From: Candidatus Peribacteria bacterium | GTDB taxonomy: Bacteria > Patescibacteriota > Gracilibacteria > BD1-5 > UBA2023 | Length of the DNA stretch: 52,388 bases | Direction of reading: 5' to 3' | NCBI GenBank assembly: GCA_040383945.1 | Contig: JBEICN010000003.1 | Span: 1 to 52,388 of the forward strand | The notes under the pieces: generated by a model | The model's database searches: none | What the model saw: the letters and a program-made list of their open reading frames with translations, nothing else | What the model was told of the DNA's origin: nothing | Part shown: piece after piece, positions 2,858 to 10,911 of the stretch | Numbering within the stretch: the first letter of the stretch is position 1 | How the letters are laid out: each line of letters begins with the position of its first letter | Position numbers and translations under genes: made by a program

Positions 2858-3118
2858 ATGACAATCATTCTTTCAGTGATTCGATTCCTTGTGTTGGGAA
2901 TGTTCACCTTTCTCCTGGTTTCTTGTGGATGAGACAAGCATAACGGCACAGATGTTATACAAAAAAAAGATGAAACGAAAGCAAAGTTGCCCTACAGTGA
3001 AGTTGTAGATGGGGAGCAGTCAAGTGCCGCCATCACTGCTCCAAATCAAACCAATCCTACTTACACTGCTCCCGTTGGTCCCTCATGAAAATCCCTCAAC
3101 ACCCCTAAACGCCCATAG
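2858..3118 (+). CDS. Small putative lipoprotein (86 aa)
   Basis: Code-25 translation MTIILSVIRFLVLGMFTFLLVSCGGDKH...: hydrophobic signal with lipobox-like LVSC; TAG ends 2 nt before the next ATG. Confidence 0.7.
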
Positions 3119-3119
3119 T

Positions 3120-6100
3120 ATGAAACATCATGTTTTCCTCACGATTCGCGTCGTACTGTTTTCTCTCATTTGGAGCCTATGGCAGTCTGTGACATTTGCC
3201 GCAGAAAATCCTCTTACTGCTTGTCCGTCTGCGCTTTCTGGACTTTGATGTAATCTGTGTTTTCAAAGTCCCAATGTCTATGAAGGCGAGGGGCTTTCCC
3301 AGTACGATATAGCTCAAAATCGAGGAAATGGAGTCATGGATTTGTATTTTCAAGATGAGCTGGTGTCTCCCACCACCTATAATTTTATTGGCTCAAAAGC
3401 CACCTATCGTCCTGCTGAATTTGAGTTTCCCTCCCTCTCTTTCCTCTCAAATTGTACCAATAACGGAATTACGGGTTGGTGTTGAGATGCCACCACAGGA
3501 CTCTATACATTTCTAAATCCCGGAGAAGACAGAATTTGGACTCAAAGCACGCCTGGAAAACATTTTCAGTTTGTTTCTCTAGACAAGAGCAATCTTTCTG
3601 CTTCTGAAATAGCTGCGATGAAACAGGTGGCTTTTGCTACCAAGTACACGCTTTCCGCATGGGGACTAAATATTGCTACCAAAAATTATGTAAGTAACCG
3701 ACCTCAAGTGGTGACCGAATGTCAGTACTGGGGGGCGAATTTTTGTTGAGATGGGGAAGTTGATGCTACCCGAGAAACATGTGATCCGAATGACCCAAAT
3801 AAGACGAATTTTTGAGCGGGTGGATGTAACTCCAGCTGTCAGCCAATTCCCGCTACAGCAACGCCAATCTGTGATGCATTGGTCGCAAATCCCAATTTTT
3901 GAACCTCTCCATTTTCTAGTGCGGTAAGCTGTTCGGGGAAAAATCTTTGATCCAATCCATCATATAAGATTGACTGTGGAAATGGTCAGGTTATTAATGC
4001 TTCAAGTGGGAGCTGTTCGTATCAGAACACTTCAAACCTGTCAATCACGCAAGATGCCACGTGTACGATCACGCCTCAAGGAGGGTCTCCCGTGACATCA
4101 AACGCCTGCAAGCTGAGAATAGCGGTCAATCCAGCAAATGCTTTTGATCTTTCACTCAAGAAATATGTTGGCACTCCTGGGGCCTCCACTGACGCTCAAA
4201 CCTCAGGCACCGCCGTAGCACAGAATCAAAATACTGATTTTTCGTATACTATCCGAGTACGCAACGAATGAACTGGGCCAACCACCGGGGTTACCACCAT
4301 GACTGATGCTGGACCAACTCCTTCATGAATACAAATACTCAACGCCACGGGGAATGGGTGGAATTGTAATGTATCTGGAAATTCCATTTCTTGTGCATCG
4401 AGCCAGGTGATTGCGGGGGGAATAAATTTTTCTGATATTATCGTATTTGCGAGAACATCATCTGCTACTGGAACCTTTCTCAATACCGCGAGTGTTTCCA
4501 ATCCAAATGAGCGTTCTGTAAATAATTTTGGGAATAATAATACGGATCCAGCTCATGTAATCGTAAGTTCTACCACTACTGCCTGTGCCATCGGCAACAT
4601 CACGCTTCCACTCACCTCCACCATCACGGCTACCACTCCCGGACTTTGTCCTGCGGGGCAGGCCGTGAATGGCTTCACGAACAACGTTGTTGGAACTACC
4701 AACAACTATGTCTGGGGATGTGGATCTTCTGCTGTCGGAGGACTCTGTGCGGCGAGTTTTACTCCCGGAGCCGTGACCCCAGCAGTCTGTGGTGCGCTCA
4801 TTTCATCGGTAACTACTCCTCAAACAACATCTTCTTATAGTTCCACGCTTACATGTACCGCTACTGCAGCGGCAGGAGTCAACCCCACTTTTCAAATCAA
4901 TTGTGGAAACGGACAAGTTATCAGTGCATCTACAGGTACTTGTAATTACACCACTTTCGGCACAAATGCAGCATTCTGTAGTGTGAATGGTCAAGTTGGC
5001 ACCGCCATACCAAATTCCTGCAGAGTCAATATCACGAGCAATCCTCCCGGAGGCGGAGGAGGCCCTGGAACTTGTGAGAAGCTGAATTTCTCTACGGTAA
5101 GTAATATTGGATCTACGTACTCCGTACTTATGGCGTGTACCGCAACCTCTGCTGCTGGCCCAAATCCAACTATAGAAGTAGATTGTGGAAACGGACAAAC
5201 TCTTACCGGATCTTCTGGCATCTGTAATTACAGTACCGGACCTGGGGCAAATTTTCCATATACTGCTACTTGTCGAGTTAACGGATCTACTCAAGGAGCA
5301 CCATCAGCTTCTCCATGAATATTCGCTGCAGGAAGTTGTCGACAGTCAATTGGCTATAGTGGTGGAGCTCCCCTGCCTCCTATTTGAGGAGGAGCATCAG
5401 GCTCAGCCTATTGCTGAAACGGAATCGTAGATAGTTGGGTGAAGACGGTTTCATGGTCAACACAAATTCCTGGTGCGGTATGCACCCCTGTTAATCGAAC
5501 AGAAACTCAAACAGTGAACGGTGTTACTACCAGTACTCTAGTACTTGATTACTACAGTTGTGTGGTTACTACTCGCGAGACATGCGATGCTGGTTCTCTG
5601 AATGGCGTAGCTATCAACAATAGCATTTGTACAGATTGTAATCTCAACCTTACATCTACCAATCCAAGAGCCAACCCACTCTTTATATCATACTATCCTG
5701 TCGACGCGACACGACCACGAGGACTTCCGGTAAATAATTACCAATGGATTGTTGGAAATAATGTGCCAATTTTTGAATCCGGTGACCGATTTGCCATTTC
5801 TTCTCCATTCCCAACCATTCTTTGAGGGTATAGTGCTACGCTAGAAAATACCTCACCGTTGGTTCTTCCGCAAGATGCCACTGTGAGCAACGCTTTTCTT
5901 AGTTCTGAGTGTATAGGCGCGGGTCGTGTTGATTTTGGATCTGGTCCTGTCAGCTGTACAGCAGAAAAGACTTTATTCAATGTCGCGAGCGGCGGTGCCG
6001 TCAACCCTGCGAGCGGAGGAGTAAGCAAGATTTTTATGGGAAATAGCTCGAGTATTGCAACTGCGGCCAAAGATGTCAATCCACCTCTGAGTCAAGGGTC

Positions 6101-6935
6101 TGCGGTACTTCAAAATAATTTTACTGTAGGGATCGGATATTTGAGAGAACCGCTTCAGGTGCGAGTCTCAAAACAAGCAGTAAGTAATACTGCCTGAGGA
6201 AATGCCTACATTGGCACTCGTGTTGGATATAGCGTAAATGCTATTACTAATGAATTTCTCGCAAGTATACAGTCTGGCAACTTCGTGGTTACCTCTGGAG
6301 CAAGTACGAGTGAGATTGCGCTTTCCTGAGTAAATGATACTATTGGATCCAAATCGTTAGAGTCGATGAATATGGGAAATGGGGGCGGTGGATCTACCTC
6401 GTCTACTGTTACTATCAGAAATATGGGAGATTTTAATTTTACTCAGTTTGAAAAAATGGGCGACGCTCCGAATATTTTTGTCATGAAGAAGGGGAAGGTA
6501 ACCATAGACGCAAATCTTCGACTCAAAGGAGTAGGGCTGCTTTTGATCGAAGAAGGTACTCTGGTTATCAATGGAAATATTACCTATGAAGACGCAAATT
6601 CCAGCTGGGCGTTTGTAGTGGTCAAACCCGATGCAAGCACGGGAGTTTCCATACTTGTCAAAGGCATCGTAGAAACCATATCTGGAGTGTATATGGCATT
6701 GAATGGAAAAATGAGCGGATCGGCCGCATCGATCGTTCAATTGTCGGTTGATGGAAACATCTACGCGAATATTTCTGAACTGGTGAATAGTCGAACATTT
6801 ATTCGAGCCACCGAAGGCTCCAGTGCCTTATCCACCGGGGTGACCGTAAACTATTCTACTCGGGCATTCAAAAATCCGCCTCCGTTACTCTCCAAGTATC
6901 TGGAACAGTATACTCTCAAAAAAATATCGAGATAA
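3120..6935 (+). CDS. Large secreted Cys-rich surface protein (about 1271 aa) with DUF11-like domain and Cys-rich repeats
   Basis: One frame through multiple TGA; N-terminal signal peptide; CGDGEVDATRETCDPND...GCNSSC and CGNGIVD motifs; DLSLKK...YTIRVRNEGTGP...NTASV segment; three CGNGQ repeats. Confidence 0.85.
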
Positions 6936-6953: not shown

Positions 6954-7004
6954 CAAAAAAGGATGACTTTTGTGGAATACAGGAGTCATCTTTTGAAATG
7001 TATG
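6954..7004. terminator. Probable bidirectional intrinsic terminator
   Basis: gatgact/agtcatc stem with an A-run before and a T-run after, between convergent genes. Confidence 0.55.
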
Positions 7005-7122
7005 GATATTGTATAGCAACGCGGATCCTTCTGGAGGCAGAGGAAATATGCGTCTTGAGTTTATAGATATACTCTTCGAAGCAATAAGTGGGGAGGGTGC
7101 TGAAAGTAGGCTTCGAGAGGCT

Positions 7123-8799
7123 CTATATATTTTTTATGAGGTAAGTTCCACAGTTCTCATATCAGAATTTTCGGTAGTACGGGCGTACTCACGCCCCGGC
7201 GATTACGGCTATTTTTGATAGGTTCGGGTAGGTTTTTGTGATGATGTGTTCGGCTTCAGCAAGCATTTTTTTACCAAAGCCCATATGTTGTCCGCTTCCG
7301 TCTGGTGCTGCTCCTATGGGGAGCTGATCGCCGAATACATGGACTTCTCGAATAATCGCACATCCATTGAGTTCTGGTATTTGGACATCTTCTCCCGTAA
7401 AATATTGACTTGGGATACGAAGTCGTAGCAATCAGAAAAGCGTTCGATCTCGTGGATCAACAAATTGAAGTAGGTACTCTTTACCCTTGCTTGCCTCATA
7501 TTCCATGATTTCCAGTTTTGCGTCAAACGGGCTATTTGTTTTGGCGCGAATTTCCCGAGCAGAAATATCTCTACGAGAAATTCATTTTATCAACATCCGT
7601 TGTGCGGTTAGCTCTCGAAGATTGCTGAGTTTTGATCCAGCAAGAATCATGGTGGCTGGGATATCTCGATAGCTTCGGTTCAATCTGACATATTCTGGAA
7701 TCATTCCTTCCAGATCCGCCATGAGATCGATAAGGGTTTCATCGTCATACGGGGTAAAACCTCCGTTTCTCCATATTTCCGTGAGCTCTGCCTTGTCGGT
7801 CACGACCATGGGGTATATTTTGAGTTCATCCGGACGAAAATCTGGATTTTCGAATATTTCTTGCATGGATGCTCGGTCTATTTGTGGAGTGGATCCGAGT
7901 AAATTTGGCATCATGTGGGCTACCACTTTGAACCCAGCATCTTTTAGGAGTTGTGTGGCCCGAATAGACTCGAGATTGCCATGACCCCGTTTGTTGATCG
8001 TATTGATGGCGTCATTCGTGGTTTGATAGCCAATTTCGACACGAGTGACACCATAGACACGAAGTTGTCGAATTTCTTCAGGAGTGATCCAGTCCGGACG
8101 GGTTTCTATCGCGATTCCGATGACTCGGGATTGAGATGTTTCGTTTCTTTCCTGAGCTTCCGAGAGGGTTTTTGAGGCAATCATTTCAAAGCCTTTTCGA
8201 ATTTTGAAGCCAGCCAGTCGGTCGCCAATTTCCCCGGCTTCTATGAATTTTCGTAAGTCTTCAAACGTTGTATGTCCATCATAAATGCCCATGATGACCA
8301 TTTCCCGATACTCCGGCGGATATACGCTCCAAGTCCCTCCAATAATCCGAACATCGCATTTGGCAATGGCATGCCCAGTTACCTCGAGGGATCTGAGGCG
8401 ATTTTGTACTTGGAGTACTGGATCGAAGGCATTGAGCTCGGCCCGCATTACGGCCGGTTCCTGGGGAACATAGCTTTTGGGTAGGTTGTCGAATGTTGGA
8501 CAAAAGACGCATTTTCCGGGGCAGCCCCAAAATTTTGTGAGCAAAGAAATCACGGAAACGCCTGACAATGATCGTACCGCGCGTTTGCGAAATAGCTTGA
8601 GAATGCGCGTTTCATTTGGATAGATCCCCGCTCGTACCCCTTTTTTGTATGATTCTAGCAATTGAAAAAGTTGCGGAGAGCTCGCATTTTTGTATTTTGC
8701 CGAAATGCGGTGAACGATAGATTGAAGGTGCTGCTTGGTAACAGCTTCTGTATCTGACAAAACCGCTTCGATTATTTCTGTAGTGACATCAAAATTCAT
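7123..8799 (-). CDS. elp3: Elp3-type tRNA uridine(34) acetyltransferase (radical SAM + KAT)
   Basis: RSLSGV, CPGKCVFCP, IETRPD, RVEIGYQT, DELKIYP, IREVHVFG, QHMGFGKKML and IAGAG(TGA)VRPYYRKFG(TGA)Y motifs; stop TAG at 7123. Confidence 0.93.
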
Positions 8800-8850
8800 G
8801 CCGCAAGTCTATTCTAACTCCCGTACTTGGCAACCTTCATATATCCACTT

Positions 8851-8878
8851 TTGACACGGATGCGACTTTTTATACAAT
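8851..8878 (+). promoter_or_regulatory. Sigma70-like promoter of tRNA-Gly(UCA)
   Basis: TTGACA-N16-TACAAT, 18 nt upstream of the tRNA. Confidence 0.7.
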
Positions 8879-8896
8879 GGGCAGGCAAAATTCCAT

Positions 8897-8975
8897 GCGG
8901 GGGTAACATAAAAGAGCGAGTGTACTAAGGCTTCAACCCTTGGGTGTGCCGGTTCAAACCCGGTCCCCCGCTCCA
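8897..8975 (+). tRNA. tRNA-Gly(UCA), decoder of TGA as Gly
   Basis: Acceptor GCGGGGG/CCCCCGC, U73, encoded CCA; anticodon loop CT-TCA-AC; T arm GCCGG-TTCAAAC-CCGGT; short variable loop; Gly identity elements G1-C72, C2-G71, G3-C70, U73. Confidence 0.92.
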
Positions 8976-9068
8976 ATTTTTGTACAATTTATAGAGTGAG
9001 ACCGTCGGTGTCACTTTTTTTATTCCCAATCTATTTTTCGATTTTTCATTTTTCTATATAATCTTTGC

Positions 9069-9407
9069 ATGGCAAATTCACACGGACTCTCACCACGACT
9101 GGTAAAAAAACAAGCACAAGCGAGAAAAAATGCAAAGGGCAAGAAAAAAGCCTTTGCGGTGTATATTGGAAACGAAAACCCACAGACACGGAAAAATACG
9201 AGTTTCAAGCAGCGCAAGCACTACATGGAAAACAAACAGAACTTTCCCAAAAAGAAACTCGGAACAAAAAATATCGAGTCTCTCATCGATCAGGGTATTT
9301 TGGATGAACGCTGATTTTTTAAAAAAGGAAAGAAGAAGAACTATATTACCAAATCTATGGTAGATCTCAAGGGGTTTGACTACTATGGGATGCCGCGAGC
9401 AGGTTAA
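9069..9407 (+). CDS. Small Lys/Arg-rich hypothetical protein (112 aa)
   Basis: ORF 9069-9314 extends through TGA to TAA 9405-9407; TATAAT 6 nt before the ATG. Confidence 0.7.
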
Positions 9408-9469
9408 TTTTTTTGAATATCACAAAAAATAGGTTACTCTGGAAGGAGTAGTTTTTATAGTGCTATTGT

Positions 9470-10267
9470 ATGAACCATAGTAAGCATGGTCCCGAAGCTT
9501 CGACACTCATTCGTCTTTACCGGTGAATTTGGGGTAAACTTGAGGAAGGGAATACCCTCCCAGTAGGTGGATCGATCTTTGCATCTGAGCTTACTACCAA
9601 GCTTCATCTCGATTTTTCTTCCTTTCCCTTGCCCGCAAATCAGAAAATAATAGTGCCTATTACCACCTCCATACAAGACTCCTTTGAGGCGTGGTATAAT
9701 CAAATGCCAGAAATGTTGAGGAAGCATGTTGATCCCCAGCTCTATTTTTCTTTGATAATGGCACAGAATGGCATGGAACAACGACTTGGAGTACAAGCTT
9801 ATGAAACTCGTGATATTGCCACACTAAGAAGTCGGAAGTATCAGCATGAAACCCCGAAACTTTCGGATTTTCGTGACGGTTCAGCTCACTGTGCCGAACG
9901 GGCGGCACTCGGTCACTGGATGCTTACGATTATGGGCATTCCGAATGTGTATATGAGCGGTGTGAGTTTTTTTGAGGATGTTTCCGACGGCGCAGACCAT
10001 AGCTGGATTGTTTTGTTTCCAGGAACCAAACAATCTATGATTTTTGATATAGCAAGACCCGAGAACGGTAAGCTCCCAAATCTTTATAAGCCAGATGAGG
10101 TGATTTCTGTGGAAGTATTTTCTGGACAAGACAATGCGTTCATCGAAACAAAGAAGCTTCTTGGAACCACGACTCGATATTTTTGAGTATCTGATAATCC
10201 ACATATGATTACTGAGATTGGAAACGTAGTAAAAAGTTCAGTAAGCAAGCACACTATGTCTCTATAA
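9470..10267 (+). CDS. Transglutaminase-like (Cys-His-Asp) domain protein
   Basis: Code-25 ORF with GSAHCAERAAL...DHSWIV...IFDIARP motif arrangement. Confidence 0.65.
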
Positions 10268-10430
10268 ATTTTTGCTTTGGAATAATCGAATTTTTATAAC
10301 TGTTTTGAGAGAGTGGTGGGGCGGGAGTTTTGATAGTTTTCCATACAGTGACATTTTAATTATTGGAATGACACTCGTTGCATTTTTCTTGCATTATTGC
10401 TATATTTCGCTATGCTCCACGAGCAATTTT

Positions 10431-10508
10431 GCAGCCGTAGCTCAGTTGGATTAGAGCGCCTCCCTGCGAAGGAGGAGGCCGCGCGTTCGAGTCGCGCCGG
10501 TTGCACCA
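10431..10508 (+). tRNA. tRNA-Arg(GCG)
   Basis: Cloverleaf GCAGCCG...CGGTTGC-A-CCA; anticodon arm CCTCC-CTGCGAA-GGAGG; T loop TTCGAGT. Confidence 0.95.
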
Positions 10509-10596
10509 TACTCACCGATTCCAGTCCCATCATCACCGCCTTTTGCCTTGTTGGTGGGATTTTTTGTGCTCACAATAATCTGAGCTGTTATTGGAT

Positions 10597-10911
10597 TTAC
10601 GGCAAAGAGCGTATCCCAAGTTCCGAAAATCTCTTCGGCTCAAAATAGATATCCCGCTCAATCCCGAGCCCGAATTTTCATCGGAACGACTCGAGTTCCG
10701 ATAGGGTAAAACTTCCCCATTCATCATTCCAGTCCCCAAAAATAGAAACGTAACCAAAGAATACGCCACTCTTTTCGTCAAATTCCGTAGCATACCAAGT
10801 GCCGGCTCAGGTGGGATTGAAAAATTTGCAGAATACTATGGGGTCGGCATCCCTCGATTGATCTCAAATTTTTTGGGAGTATTTTAAGATTTTTTTGGTG
10901 AGGAGTTTCAT
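10597..10911 (-). CDS. DUF2958 family protein
   Basis: Absent from the ORF track (three TGA); MKLLTKK...PIVFCKFFNPTGAGTWYATEFD...FFGYV...EWGSFTLSELESFRGKFGLGIERDIYFEPK matches the family pattern as I recall it. Confidence 0.8.

What the first reader, a model, noticed from the sequence alone, without database searches (positions are those of the whole stretch)
7123..8975. Elp3 wobble-U34 enzyme head-to-head with the recoding tRNA-Gly(UCA): possible recoding module
Seen: the elp3 start (8799) and the tRNA 5' end (8897) are 97 nt apart with back-to-back promoter-like sites. Established: Elp3 carboxymethylates U34; Elongator-dependent U34 modification is needed by eukaryotic nonsense-suppressor tRNAs and occurs on tRNA-Sec; unmodified U34 can wobble across a whole codon box. 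Inference: this Elp3 modifies tRNA-Gly(UCA) so that it reads UGA efficiently without mis-reading Cys (UGY) or Trp (UGG) codons, giving bacterial Elp3 a role in code reassignment. The adjacency could be chance.
Basis: partly seen in the sequence, partly recalled or inferred. Interest (0 to 1): 0.85.

Follow-up and report, generated by a model that had tools for sequence, protein, structure and literature searches.

The report
Elp3 beside the UGA-decoding glycine tRNA
A tRNA-modifying enzyme (Elp3) does sit head-to-head with the tRNA that reads UGA as glycine, but the pairing is gene order inherited within one bacterial family, and the enzyme is a general one that is also common in relatives with the standard code.

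Summary
An intact elp3 (7123-8799, minus strand, 4 in-frame TGA) lies 97 nt from a divergent tRNA-Gly(UCA) (8897-8975). The genome has RF1 only.

The "recoding module" reading is not supported.
- **Linkage is confined to one family.** The tRNA lies within 2.3 kb of elp3 in 22 of 31 resolvable genomes of family f1. It is unlinked in 0 of 24 genomes of sister families f2/f3, and at 0 of 11 elp3 loci in two other UGA=Gly families.
- **The link has decayed within f1.** It was lost or stretched several times.
- **The tRNA has its own promoter.** It is near-consensus and is present whether or not elp3 is adjacent.
- **Elp3 is not specific to code 25.** It occurs in 80 of 81 RF2-less genomes, in 173 of 219 other genomes of the class, and in 77 of 190 genomes elsewhere in the phylum.
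- **Elp3 looks vertically inherited**, so it predates the code change.
- **MnmG is missing.** It was found in 0 of 301 class genomes.

Elp3 is therefore the only recognisable xm5U34 enzyme here, with 14 U34 tRNAs as candidate substrates. tRNA-Gly(UCA) is probably one of them, but this is untested. The tRNA's tighter partner is an orphan 112-aa basic protein just downstream.

The parts
7123..8799 (-). elp3 coding sequence (558 aa plus stop). It encodes a radical-SAM/GNAT tRNA U34 carboxymethylase and has four TGA=Gly codons (G406, G456, G537, G546).
   Evidence: TIGR01211 scores 487.5 bits (cut-off 350). The conserved residues C93-x3-C97-x2-C100, K147, K291, E485, QHxGxG and Y541 are all present.
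8800..8896 (.). 97-nt divergent intergenic region.
8806..8833 (-). Weak promoter-like site for elp3 (TTGCCA-16-TAGACT, 9 of 12). Its -10 box ends 7 nt before the ATG.
   Evidence: This is a consensus match only; function is not shown.
8851..8878 (+). Near-consensus promoter-like site for the tRNA (TTGACA-16-TACAAT, 11 of 12). It ends 18 nt before the tRNA 5' end.
   Evidence: A similar TTGAC..TA(T/C)A(A/C)T pair is seen by eye upstream of tRNA(UCA) in most linked and unlinked relatives.
8897..8975 (+). tRNA-Gly(UCA), 79 nt, with an encoded CCA end.
   Evidence: It carries G1:C72, C2:G71, G3:C70 and U73. Of cells, 99.7% are paired, and 5 pairs show compensatory changes across 15 distinct sequences.
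8993..9021 (+). Terminator-like hairpin plus a run of seven T after the tRNA.
   Evidence: -11.5 kcal/mol, z = -3.17, 1 of 200 shuffles folds as well. The consensus scan did not call it.
9069..9407 (+). Orphan basic protein of 112 aa (P0002, one TGA). It is the most constant neighbour of tRNA(UCA).

Best explanation
elp3 and tRNA-Gly(UCA) are two independent transcription units. They became neighbours in the ancestor of one family (f1) of a UGA=Gly order, and that arrangement has been partly inherited and partly eroded since.

Elp3 here is a housekeeping enzyme inherited vertically from before the code change. It is a stand-alone radical-SAM/acetyl-CoA enzyme that puts a carboxymethyl group on C5 of wobble uridine. 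Because MnmE/MnmG are missing, it is the genome's only recognisable xm5U34 pathway. It would serve up to 14 tRNAs with U34, and tRNA-Gly(UCA) is probably one of them.

Shown: gene identities, the genetic code, the phyletic pattern and the synteny pattern. Inferred: the enzymatic activity, the substrate range, and any effect on UGA, UGG or UGY decoding.
For: 1. Identity and intact active site.
2. The code. RF1 scores 457.9 bits, over its cut-off. The same gene scores only 262.9 bits on the RF2 model, whose cut-off is 370. Each of the 4 TGA codons in elp3 aligns to Gly in at least one of two solved Elp3s.
3. No MnmG and no MnmE over the cut-off in the own genome. MnmG was found in 0 of 301 genomes of the class.
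4. 14 of the 35 tRNAs found have U34.
5. Elp3 distribution. In the class, 241 of 301 genomes score over the cut-off. By family, RF2-less families have it in 80 of 81 genomes and the rest in 173 of 219, with one family (f10) at 1 of 40. In the phylum sample, 85 of 201 genomes have Elp3 and 11 of 201 have MnmG; 0 have both and 105 have neither.
6. The Elp3 tree follows taxonomy. The own order is one clade (SH-aLRT 100) and f1 is one clade (92).
7. Linkage within f1. The tRNA is within 300 nt of elp3 and divergent in 14 genomes, 487-2302 nt away in 8, not within 1.5 kb in 9, and unresolved in 6. In f2 and f3 it is linked in 0 of 24 genomes; where both genes share a contig they lie 48-591 kb apart.
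8. In families f14 and f27, 0 of 11 elp3 loci have a tRNA(UCA) within about 6 kb.
9. In 20 RF2-positive relatives there is no tRNA-Gly or tRNA(UCA) within 3 kb of elp3.
10. The tRNA keeps its own strong promoter-like site in unlinked genomes.
Against: Within f1 the elp3-tRNA link is kept more often than elp3's other neighbour. In the same 25 loci the tRNA is present in 12 and the P0004 homologue in 6. The link occurs in all three f1 subclades of the Elp3 tree. Some selective value of the divergent arrangement therefore cannot be excluded.

No RF2-less family was seen without Elp3, whereas one RF2-positive family (f10) and 105 of 201 phylum genomes lack both Elp3 and MnmG. That pattern fits a stronger need for Elp3 under code 25. 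However, the RF2-less families are few and related, so it amounts to about one independent observation.

No biochemical evidence exists for any substrate of this Elp3.
Confidence: 0.7

Rival explanations
1. A dedicated recoding module. The divergent elp3/tRNA-Gly(UCA) pair is kept together by selection, for example for co-expression or dosage coupling, because Elp3 modification of U34 is specifically needed for this tRNA to read UGA without misreading UGG or UGY.
For: The head-to-head arrangement, within 300 nt, is seen in 14 f1 genomes spanning 9 genera (g1, g3, g8, g9, g12, g13, g20, g23 and the own genus). All RF2-less families keep Elp3, 80 of 81 genomes. Elp3 is the only xm5U34 enzyme present. 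Shulgina & Eddy (PMC8629427, passages read) flag U34 wobble ambiguity between UGA=Gly and UGG=Trp as an open issue.
Against: There is no linkage in f2/f3 (0 of 24 genomes) or in f14/f27 (0 of 11 loci). Within f1 the link was lost in 9 genomes and stretched by 0.5-2.3 kb in 8. Elp3 is equally common in RF2-positive relatives and across the phylum. The tRNA has its own promoter-like site whether or not it is linked. The tRNA's constant partner is P0002, not elp3: 21 of 21 f1 tRNA loci.
Confidence: 0.12
2. Pure coincidence, and tRNA-Gly(UCA) is not an Elp3 substrate at all. Its U34 would be left unmodified or handled by another enzyme, with Elp3 serving only other U34 tRNAs.
For: The tRNA has an atypical D arm and an extra pair in the anticodon stem. 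Of 201 phylum genomes, 105 have neither Elp3 nor MnmG, so U34 C5 modification is dispensable for many tRNAs in this phylum. The linkage is lineage-limited.
Against: From recall, not from any call here: in eukaryotes, Elongator-dependent modification is reported on tRNA-Gly(UCC) and tRNA-Sec(UCA). An unmodified U34 in the split UGN box would risk reading the Cys and Trp codons. Elp3 is retained in all RF2-less families sampled.
Confidence: 0.18

Closest known systems
Stand-alone archaeal and bacterial Elp3 (Methanocaldococcus infernus 6iaz, Dehalococcoides mccartyi 5l7j)
   Same: It has the same two-domain architecture (radical SAM plus KAT/GNAT) and matches TIGR01211 end to end. The Fe-S cysteines are present, as are the acetyl-CoA pocket residues K147, K291, E485 and Y541, which correspond to Dmc K77, K193, E386 and Y441 (residue list from PMC6367351, passages read).
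   Different: [quoted passage not shown] All 30 Elp3s of the own order lack it, and so do 5 of 20 RF2-positive relatives. It has an unaligned stretch of about 33 residues (175-207) relative to both structures. It is written with TGA=Gly codons.
tRNA-Gly(UCA) of Gracilibacteria/Absconditabacteria (NCBI code 25)
   Same: It has anticodon UCA and the glycine identity set G1:C72, C2:G71, G3:C70, U73 used by Shulgina & Eddy (PMC8629427). RF2 is absent. The P0002 homologues are named 'Candidatus Gracilibacteria' by their sources.
   Different: Nothing essential. It is one more member of this tRNA family, and it is 96% conserved across family f1.
MnmE/MnmG-dependent (c)mnm5U34 on UGA-reading tRNA-Trp(UCA) in Mycoplasma and mitochondria (recalled, not from a call)
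   Different: It is a different enzyme family. MnmG was not found in any of the 301 class genomes. There the tRNA may read both UGA and UGG; here UGG must stay Trp.
Eukaryotic Elongator acting on tRNA-Sec(UCA) and on nonsense-suppressor tRNAs (recalled, not from a call)
   Same: The catalytic subunit family is the same, and the same anticodon is compatible with the enzyme.
   Different: Eukaryotic Elp3 works within the six-subunit Elongator complex. Here Elp3 stands alone.

Membership tests
Elp3 (TIGR01211) | Full-length match over the curated cut-off | tested here: met
   487.5 bits against 350, covering model positions 3-522 of 522.
Elp3 (TIGR01211) | Radical-SAM CxxxCxxC iron-sulfur motif | tested here: met
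   C93, C97 and C100 are present, aligned to the motif in 6iaz and 5l7j. The motif is conserved in all 61 Elp3s aligned.
Elp3 (TIGR01211) | KAT/GNAT acetyl-CoA pocket residues (Dmc K77, K193, E386, Y441; QHxGxG) | tested here: met
   K147, K291, E485, Y541 and QHMGFG are present. The residue list comes from PMC6367351.
Elp3 (TIGR01211) | [quoted passage not shown] | tested here: not met
   The region reads ...SRRDISARE... with no cysteine. The motif is absent in 30 of 30 own-order Elp3s and present in 15 of 20 RF2-positive relatives. It is a structural feature, not a catalytic one, and eukaryotic Elp3s also lack it (PMC6367351).
Elp3 (TIGR01211) | Basic N-terminal tRNA-binding extension (ELP3_N) | tested here: inconclusive
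   PF23613 scores 19.5 bits, below its gathering score of 27.
Elp3 (TIGR01211) | tRNA-dependent acetyl-CoA hydrolysis and cm5U34 formation | not testable with these tools
   This needs biochemistry.
Code-25 tRNA-Gly(UCA) | Cloverleaf tRNA with anticodon UCA | tested here: met
   ARAGORN call. Rfam tRNA scores 44.2 bits against 29. Of cells, 99.7% are paired, 5 pairs are compensatory, and 0 of 500 shuffles reach the covariation score.
Code-25 tRNA-Gly(UCA) | Glycine identity elements G1:C72, C2:G71, G3:C70, U73 | tested here: met
   These are invariant in 15 distinct sequences. The rule is from PMC8629427. The nearest tRNA in the own genome is Gly(UCC) at 62% identity.
Code-25 tRNA-Gly(UCA) | The genome uses TGA as Gly and lacks RF2 | tested here: met
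   The TGA codons in elp3 align to Gly. Only RF1 is present. In-frame TGA codons also occur in mnmA and miaA.
Functionally coupled 'recoding module' (conserved gene pair) | Linkage conserved across lineages that share the trait | tested here: not met
   f1 has 22 of 31 resolvable genomes linked. f2/f3 have 0 of 24 genomes and f14/f27 have 0 of 11 loci.
Functionally coupled 'recoding module' (conserved gene pair) | The enzyme co-occurs with the trait and is absent without it | tested here: not met
   Elp3 is in 80 of 81 RF2-less genomes, but also in 173 of 219 other class genomes and 77 of 190 genomes elsewhere in the phylum.
Functionally coupled 'recoding module' (conserved gene pair) | Shared regulation | tested here: inconclusive
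   Two separate back-to-back promoter-like sites are present. The tRNA keeps its site in unlinked genomes. No RNA run was listed.

The most novel reading that the evidence does not exclude
Elp3 would be the enzyme that makes code 25 workable. As the only xm5U34 pathway in this class, it was already in place when UGA was captured by a duplicated tRNA-Gly. Its cm5U-type modification of tRNA-Gly(UCA) would keep that tRNA from reading the Cys (UGY) codons, and largely the Trp (UGG) codon. That would explain why no UGA=Gly lineage sampled has lost Elp3, while standard-code relatives have. It would give bacterial Elp3 a role in maintaining a reassigned codon, even though the gene adjacency itself is only a family-level relic.
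Probability: 0.3. Interest if true: 0.7.

Novelty: new member of a known kind. Interest (0 to 1): 0.35.

Why it matters
How UGA=Gly bacteria avoid U34 wobble onto UGG (Trp) and UGY (Cys) is an acknowledged open point (PMC8629427, passage read). This work does not answer it, but it narrows the candidates. In these genomes the only recognisable C5-U34 modifier is Elp3, not MnmEG, so one enzyme and one tRNA can be tested directly.

It also shows that Elp3, described in the literature as rare in bacteria (PMC6367351), is common in this phylum (85 of 201 sampled genomes). In that sample it is mutually exclusive with MnmG (0 genomes with both).

The adjacency that prompted the finding is not evidence for the function.

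Tried and rejected
**Ideas tested and rejected**
- tRNA(UCA) arose next to elp3 from a resident tRNA-Gly. Rejected: in 20 RF2-positive relatives no tRNA-Gly lies within 3 kb of elp3; 6 of the 20 loci hold some other tRNA. A tRNA-Gly(GCC) does follow tRNA(UCA) directly in G001, G002, G016, G019, G024, G026 and G036.
- Loss of the Elp3 zinc motif marks code 25. Rejected: it is also lost in 5 of 20 RF2-positive Elp3s and kept in 1 of 7 f14 copies and 3 of 4 f27 copies.

**Attempts to name P0002, which led nowhere**
- No Pfam or NCBIfam hit.
- Only weak scattered Pfam hits for 24 homologues.
- No PDB sequence hit with a profile.
- The atlas gave no usable hit for homologue P0008.
- The AlphaFold2 model was poor (mean pLDDT 61.9, pTM 0.34), so no fold search was run.

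**Expression**
- No RNA holder was listed for window 7000-10600.

**Literature searches that returned nothing on topic**
- Elp3 with Gracilibacteria: 2 papers, unrelated.
- Elp3 with Absconditabacteria: 0 papers.
- Elp3 with 'Candidate Phyla Radiation': 0 papers.
- Elp3 with Patescibacteria: 3 papers, unrelated.
- 'Candidate Phyla Radiation' with MnmG: 0 papers.
- Elongator with Gracilibacteria: 1 paper, where the word means elongator tRNA-Met.
- Supplements were closed and not consulted. Supplementary tables of PMC8629427 and PMC13092985 may list tRNA and modification-gene data that bear on this.

**Limits of the counts**
- Genomes are one per species, unnamed and related to each other.
- Distances use HMM match ends, not start codons.
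- 'Unlinked' on different contigs means not within the 1.5-kb flanks held.
- The RF2-less label for f1, f2, f3, f14 and f27 rests on best E-values of 1e-81 to 1e-86. That is the range of the RF1 cross-hit, which scores 262.9 bits in the own genome. In-frame TGA codons support it.
- f17 (one genome, 86% complete, no TGA in elp3) was left with the 'other' group.
Full report
**Observation.**
- Under NCBI table 25 the minus-strand ORF 7123..8799 gives a 558-aa protein with four TGA codons. It matches NCBIfam TIGR01211 (ELP3) end to end at 487.5 bits, against a cut-off of 350.
- It also matches Pfam Radical_SAM and Radical_SAM_C, and the solved Elp3s of Methanocaldococcus infernus (6iaz, 1.4e-99) and Dehalococcoides mccartyi (5l7j, 1e-93).
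- ARAGORN finds a 79-nt tRNA with anticodon TCA at 8897..8975 on the plus strand. Rfam's tRNA model gives 44.2 bits (gathering score 29) on the short stretch, although the whole-window gathering run had not listed it.
- The two genes diverge across 97 nt.
- A near-consensus promoter-like site faces the tRNA (TTGACA-16-TACAAT, 8851..8878, 11 of 12). A weaker one faces elp3 (8833..8806, 9 of 12).

**What the two genes are.**
- *Elp3.* It keeps the Fe-S motif C93-x3-C97-x2-C100, the QHxGxG motif, and K147, K291, E485 and Y541. These are the counterparts of DmcElp3 K77, K193, E386 and Y441, named as key residues in PMC6367351 (passages read; alignments).
[quoted passage not shown] That loss is shared by all 30 Elp3s of the own order, but also by 5 of 20 standard-code relatives.
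- *The tRNA.* It carries G1:C72, C2:G71, G3:C70 and U73, the rule Shulgina & Eddy used to call tRNA(UCA) a glycine acceptor (PMC8629427). Its nearest relative in the genome is tRNA-Gly(UCC) at 62% identity.
- Across 30 relatives (15 distinct sequences), 99.7% of cells pair and 5 pairs show compensatory changes.
- *The code.* The genome (1.03 Mb, 69 contigs, 95% complete, 41.9% GC) has one class-I release factor. It is RF1 (457.9 bits) and only cross-hits the RF2 model at 262.9 bits, below the cut-off of 370.
- Each of the four TGA codons of elp3 aligns to Gly in at least one of the two solved Elp3s, and two align to Gly in both.
- Homologues of the neighbouring small protein are labelled 'Candidatus Gracilibacteria' by their sources.

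**Is the linkage conserved?**
- I located elp3 and tRNA(UCA), using covariance model R1, in 61 genomes of the own order (families f1, f2, f3).
- In f1 (37 genomes including the own):
  - 14 have the tRNA within 300 nt of elp3 and divergent: G000, G001, G002, G003, G004, G007, G012, G013, G016, G017, G024, G027 (tRNA cut by the contig end), G032 and G036.
  - 8 have it 487-2302 nt away: G006, G005, G029, G020, G021, G019, G025 and G009. In G009 it is on the same strand as elp3.
  - 9 do not have it within 1.5 kb: G010, G014, G015, G018, G022, G026 (133 kb away), G030 (8.9 kb away), G034 and G035.
  - 6 are unresolved because of fragmentary contigs or a missing gene: G008, G011, G023, G028, G031 and G033.
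- In f2 and f3 it is linked in 0 of 24 genomes. Where both genes lie on one contig they are 48-591 kb apart (G037, G038, G039, G040, G045, G052).
- In two further UGA=Gly families of the class, 11 elp3 loci with about 6 kb on each side held no tRNA(UCA). These were 7 f14 genomes and 4 elp3 copies in 2 f27 genomes.
- Twenty RF2-positive relatives had no tRNA-Gly or tRNA(UCA) within 3 kb of elp3.
- On the Elp3 tree the linked state occurs in all three f1 subclades, with unlinked genomes scattered among them. So the arrangement was ancestral to f1 and was lost or stretched several times.
- For calibration, elp3's other neighbour (the P0004 homologue) is kept in 6 of 25 f1 loci and the tRNA in 12 of the same 25. 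The small ORF downstream of the tRNA (P0002) is kept in 21 of 21 f1 tRNA loci and 3 of 9 f2 loci.

**Is Elp3 tied to the code?**
- In a 301-genome sample of the class, Elp3 is over its cut-off in 241 genomes. True RF2 is over its cut-off in 201.
- Families whose only RF2-model hits are RF1-type (E 1e-81 to 1e-86) or absent, and whose elp3 carries in-frame TGA, are f1, f2, f3, f14 and f27. Elp3 is present in 15/16, 20/20, 3/3, 40/40 and 2/2 of them respectively, or 80 of 81 in total.
- In the remaining 219 genomes Elp3 is present in 173. One family (f10) accounts for 39 of the 46 without it.
- In a 201-genome sample of the phylum, 85 genomes have Elp3; 77 of these are among the 190 outside the class, and all listed matches are without in-frame stops.
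- MnmG was found in 0 of 301 class genomes and in 11 of 201 phylum genomes. None of those 11 is among the 85 with Elp3, so 0 genomes have both and 105 have neither.
- The own genome has no MnmG and no MnmE over the cut-off. It does have MnmA and MiaA.
- The Elp3 tree (61 rows, IQ-TREE quick search, LG+G4, SH-aLRT support) puts the own order in one clade (100), with f1 as one clade (92), f3 as its sister and f2 outside. This pattern fits vertical descent.
- Elp3 therefore predates the code change and is not specific to it.

**Anatomy and likely working.**
- The tRNA has its own strong promoter-like site. A similar pair of hexamers sits upstream of tRNA(UCA) in linked and unlinked relatives. The exceptions are G009 and G030, where another tRNA precedes it.
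- In this genome a hairpin plus a run of seven T follows the tRNA at 8993..9021 (-11.5 kcal/mol, z = -3.17).
- The elp3-side -10-like box ends 7 nt before the ATG, so the mRNA may be leaderless. This is an inference.
- 14 of the 35 tRNAs found carry U34.
- The best-supported reading is that Elp3 is the general, and only, C5-U34 modifier of this organism, and that tRNA-Gly(UCA) is probably one client among many.
- Whether the modification restricts that tRNA to UGA is a reasonable inference from what xm5U does elsewhere (recalled), but nothing here tests it.

**Comparison with what is known.**
- Both parts are members of known families (see Membership tests).
- PMC6367351 describes Elp3 as present in 'some bacterial clades' and DmcElp3 as 'a rare example'.
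- I found no paper in the held library connecting Elp3 with Gracilibacteria, Absconditabacteria, CPR or Patescibacteria on this topic, nor MnmG with CPR. That library is incomplete, and supplements were closed.
- PMC13092985 (passages read) places the UGA=Gly lineages in one class of Patescibacteriota under an earlier taxonomy. In the release used by the tools, the 'class' also holds RF2-positive families.

**Verdict.**
- The adjacency is real, but it is a family-level relic of gene order rather than a recoding module. Elp3's link to code 25 is at most indirect, as a pre-existing general enzyme that may have become important for the new tRNA.
- Interest is moderate. The specific claim is mostly deflated, but a testable candidate for the U34 wobble problem of code 25 remains. 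So does a clear phyletic pattern: Elp3 is common, and MnmG is rare and mutually exclusive with it.

Noticed in passing
window 9069-9407 (+): P0002 is a 112-aa, very basic orphan protein about 90 nt downstream of tRNA(UCA). It is 62-94% identical across the order, where Elp3 is about 55-85% identical. It was found in f1 15/16, f2 19/20 and f3 3/3, but in 0 of 262 other class genomes with this query, including the other UGA=Gly families f14 and f27. It sits next to tRNA(UCA) in 24 of 30 tRNA loci. It has no family, structure or atlas lead. It is possibly a lineage-specific ribosome- or RNA-associated protein.
   Followed up: partly
phylum and class samples: In 201 phylum genomes, Elp3 (85) and MnmG (11) never co-occur, and 105 genomes have neither. 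MnmG was not found in any of the 301 class genomes. Class family f10 (RF2-positive) has Elp3 in only 1 of 40 genomes and no MnmG, so it has no recognisable xm5U34 pathway.
   Followed up: partly
L067-L070 (G089, G101; family f27): Both f27 genomes carry two elp3 copies, each with 20-27 in-frame TGA. One copy groups with RF2-positive families. The other groups with the long-branched f14 Elp3s.
   Followed up: partly
L062-L066, L071, L072 (family f14): The f14 Elp3s carry a large insertion in the alignment, roughly 55-80 residues, exactly where the zinc motif lies. The HMM match is split in two there.
   Followed up: no
whole genome G000; window 8976-9068: No tRNA-Gly(GCC) is found in this assembly by ARAGORN, or by BLAST with the congener's gene. 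In G001, G002, G016, G019, G024, G026 and G036 it lies immediately after tRNA(UCA). It is either unassembled (the genome is 95% complete, with 35 tRNAs found) or lost, which would leave GGY to tRNA-Gly(UCC).
   Followed up: partly
alignment A2 (P0002 homologues from public sources): Several database entries show W at otherwise invariant Gly columns, for example in the ...ERGFF... and ...KGKKK... motifs. These are most likely TGA codons translated as Trp by pipelines using the wrong code table. In G017, G006 and G029 the conserved Gly6 codon is TGA.
   Followed up: no
window 3009-6935 (+): A 1308-aa Cys-, Gly-, Ser- and Thr-rich protein with an N-terminal hydrophobic stretch and 14 TGA codons has no Pfam hit. 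Homologues flank elp3 only in 6 of 25 f1 loci.
   Followed up: no
window 8897-8975: The whole-window Rfam gathering search did not list this tRNA, although it scores 44.2 bits against a gathering score of 29 when the short stretch is searched. The invariant odd D arm (no GG in the D loop) probably trips the speed filters.
   Followed up: yes
window 9470-10267 (+), 10431-10508 (+): A 265-aa ORF with no family hit is conserved only within the genus. It is followed by tRNA-Arg(GCG), which accompanies tRNA(UCA) in many f1 genomes.
   Followed up: no
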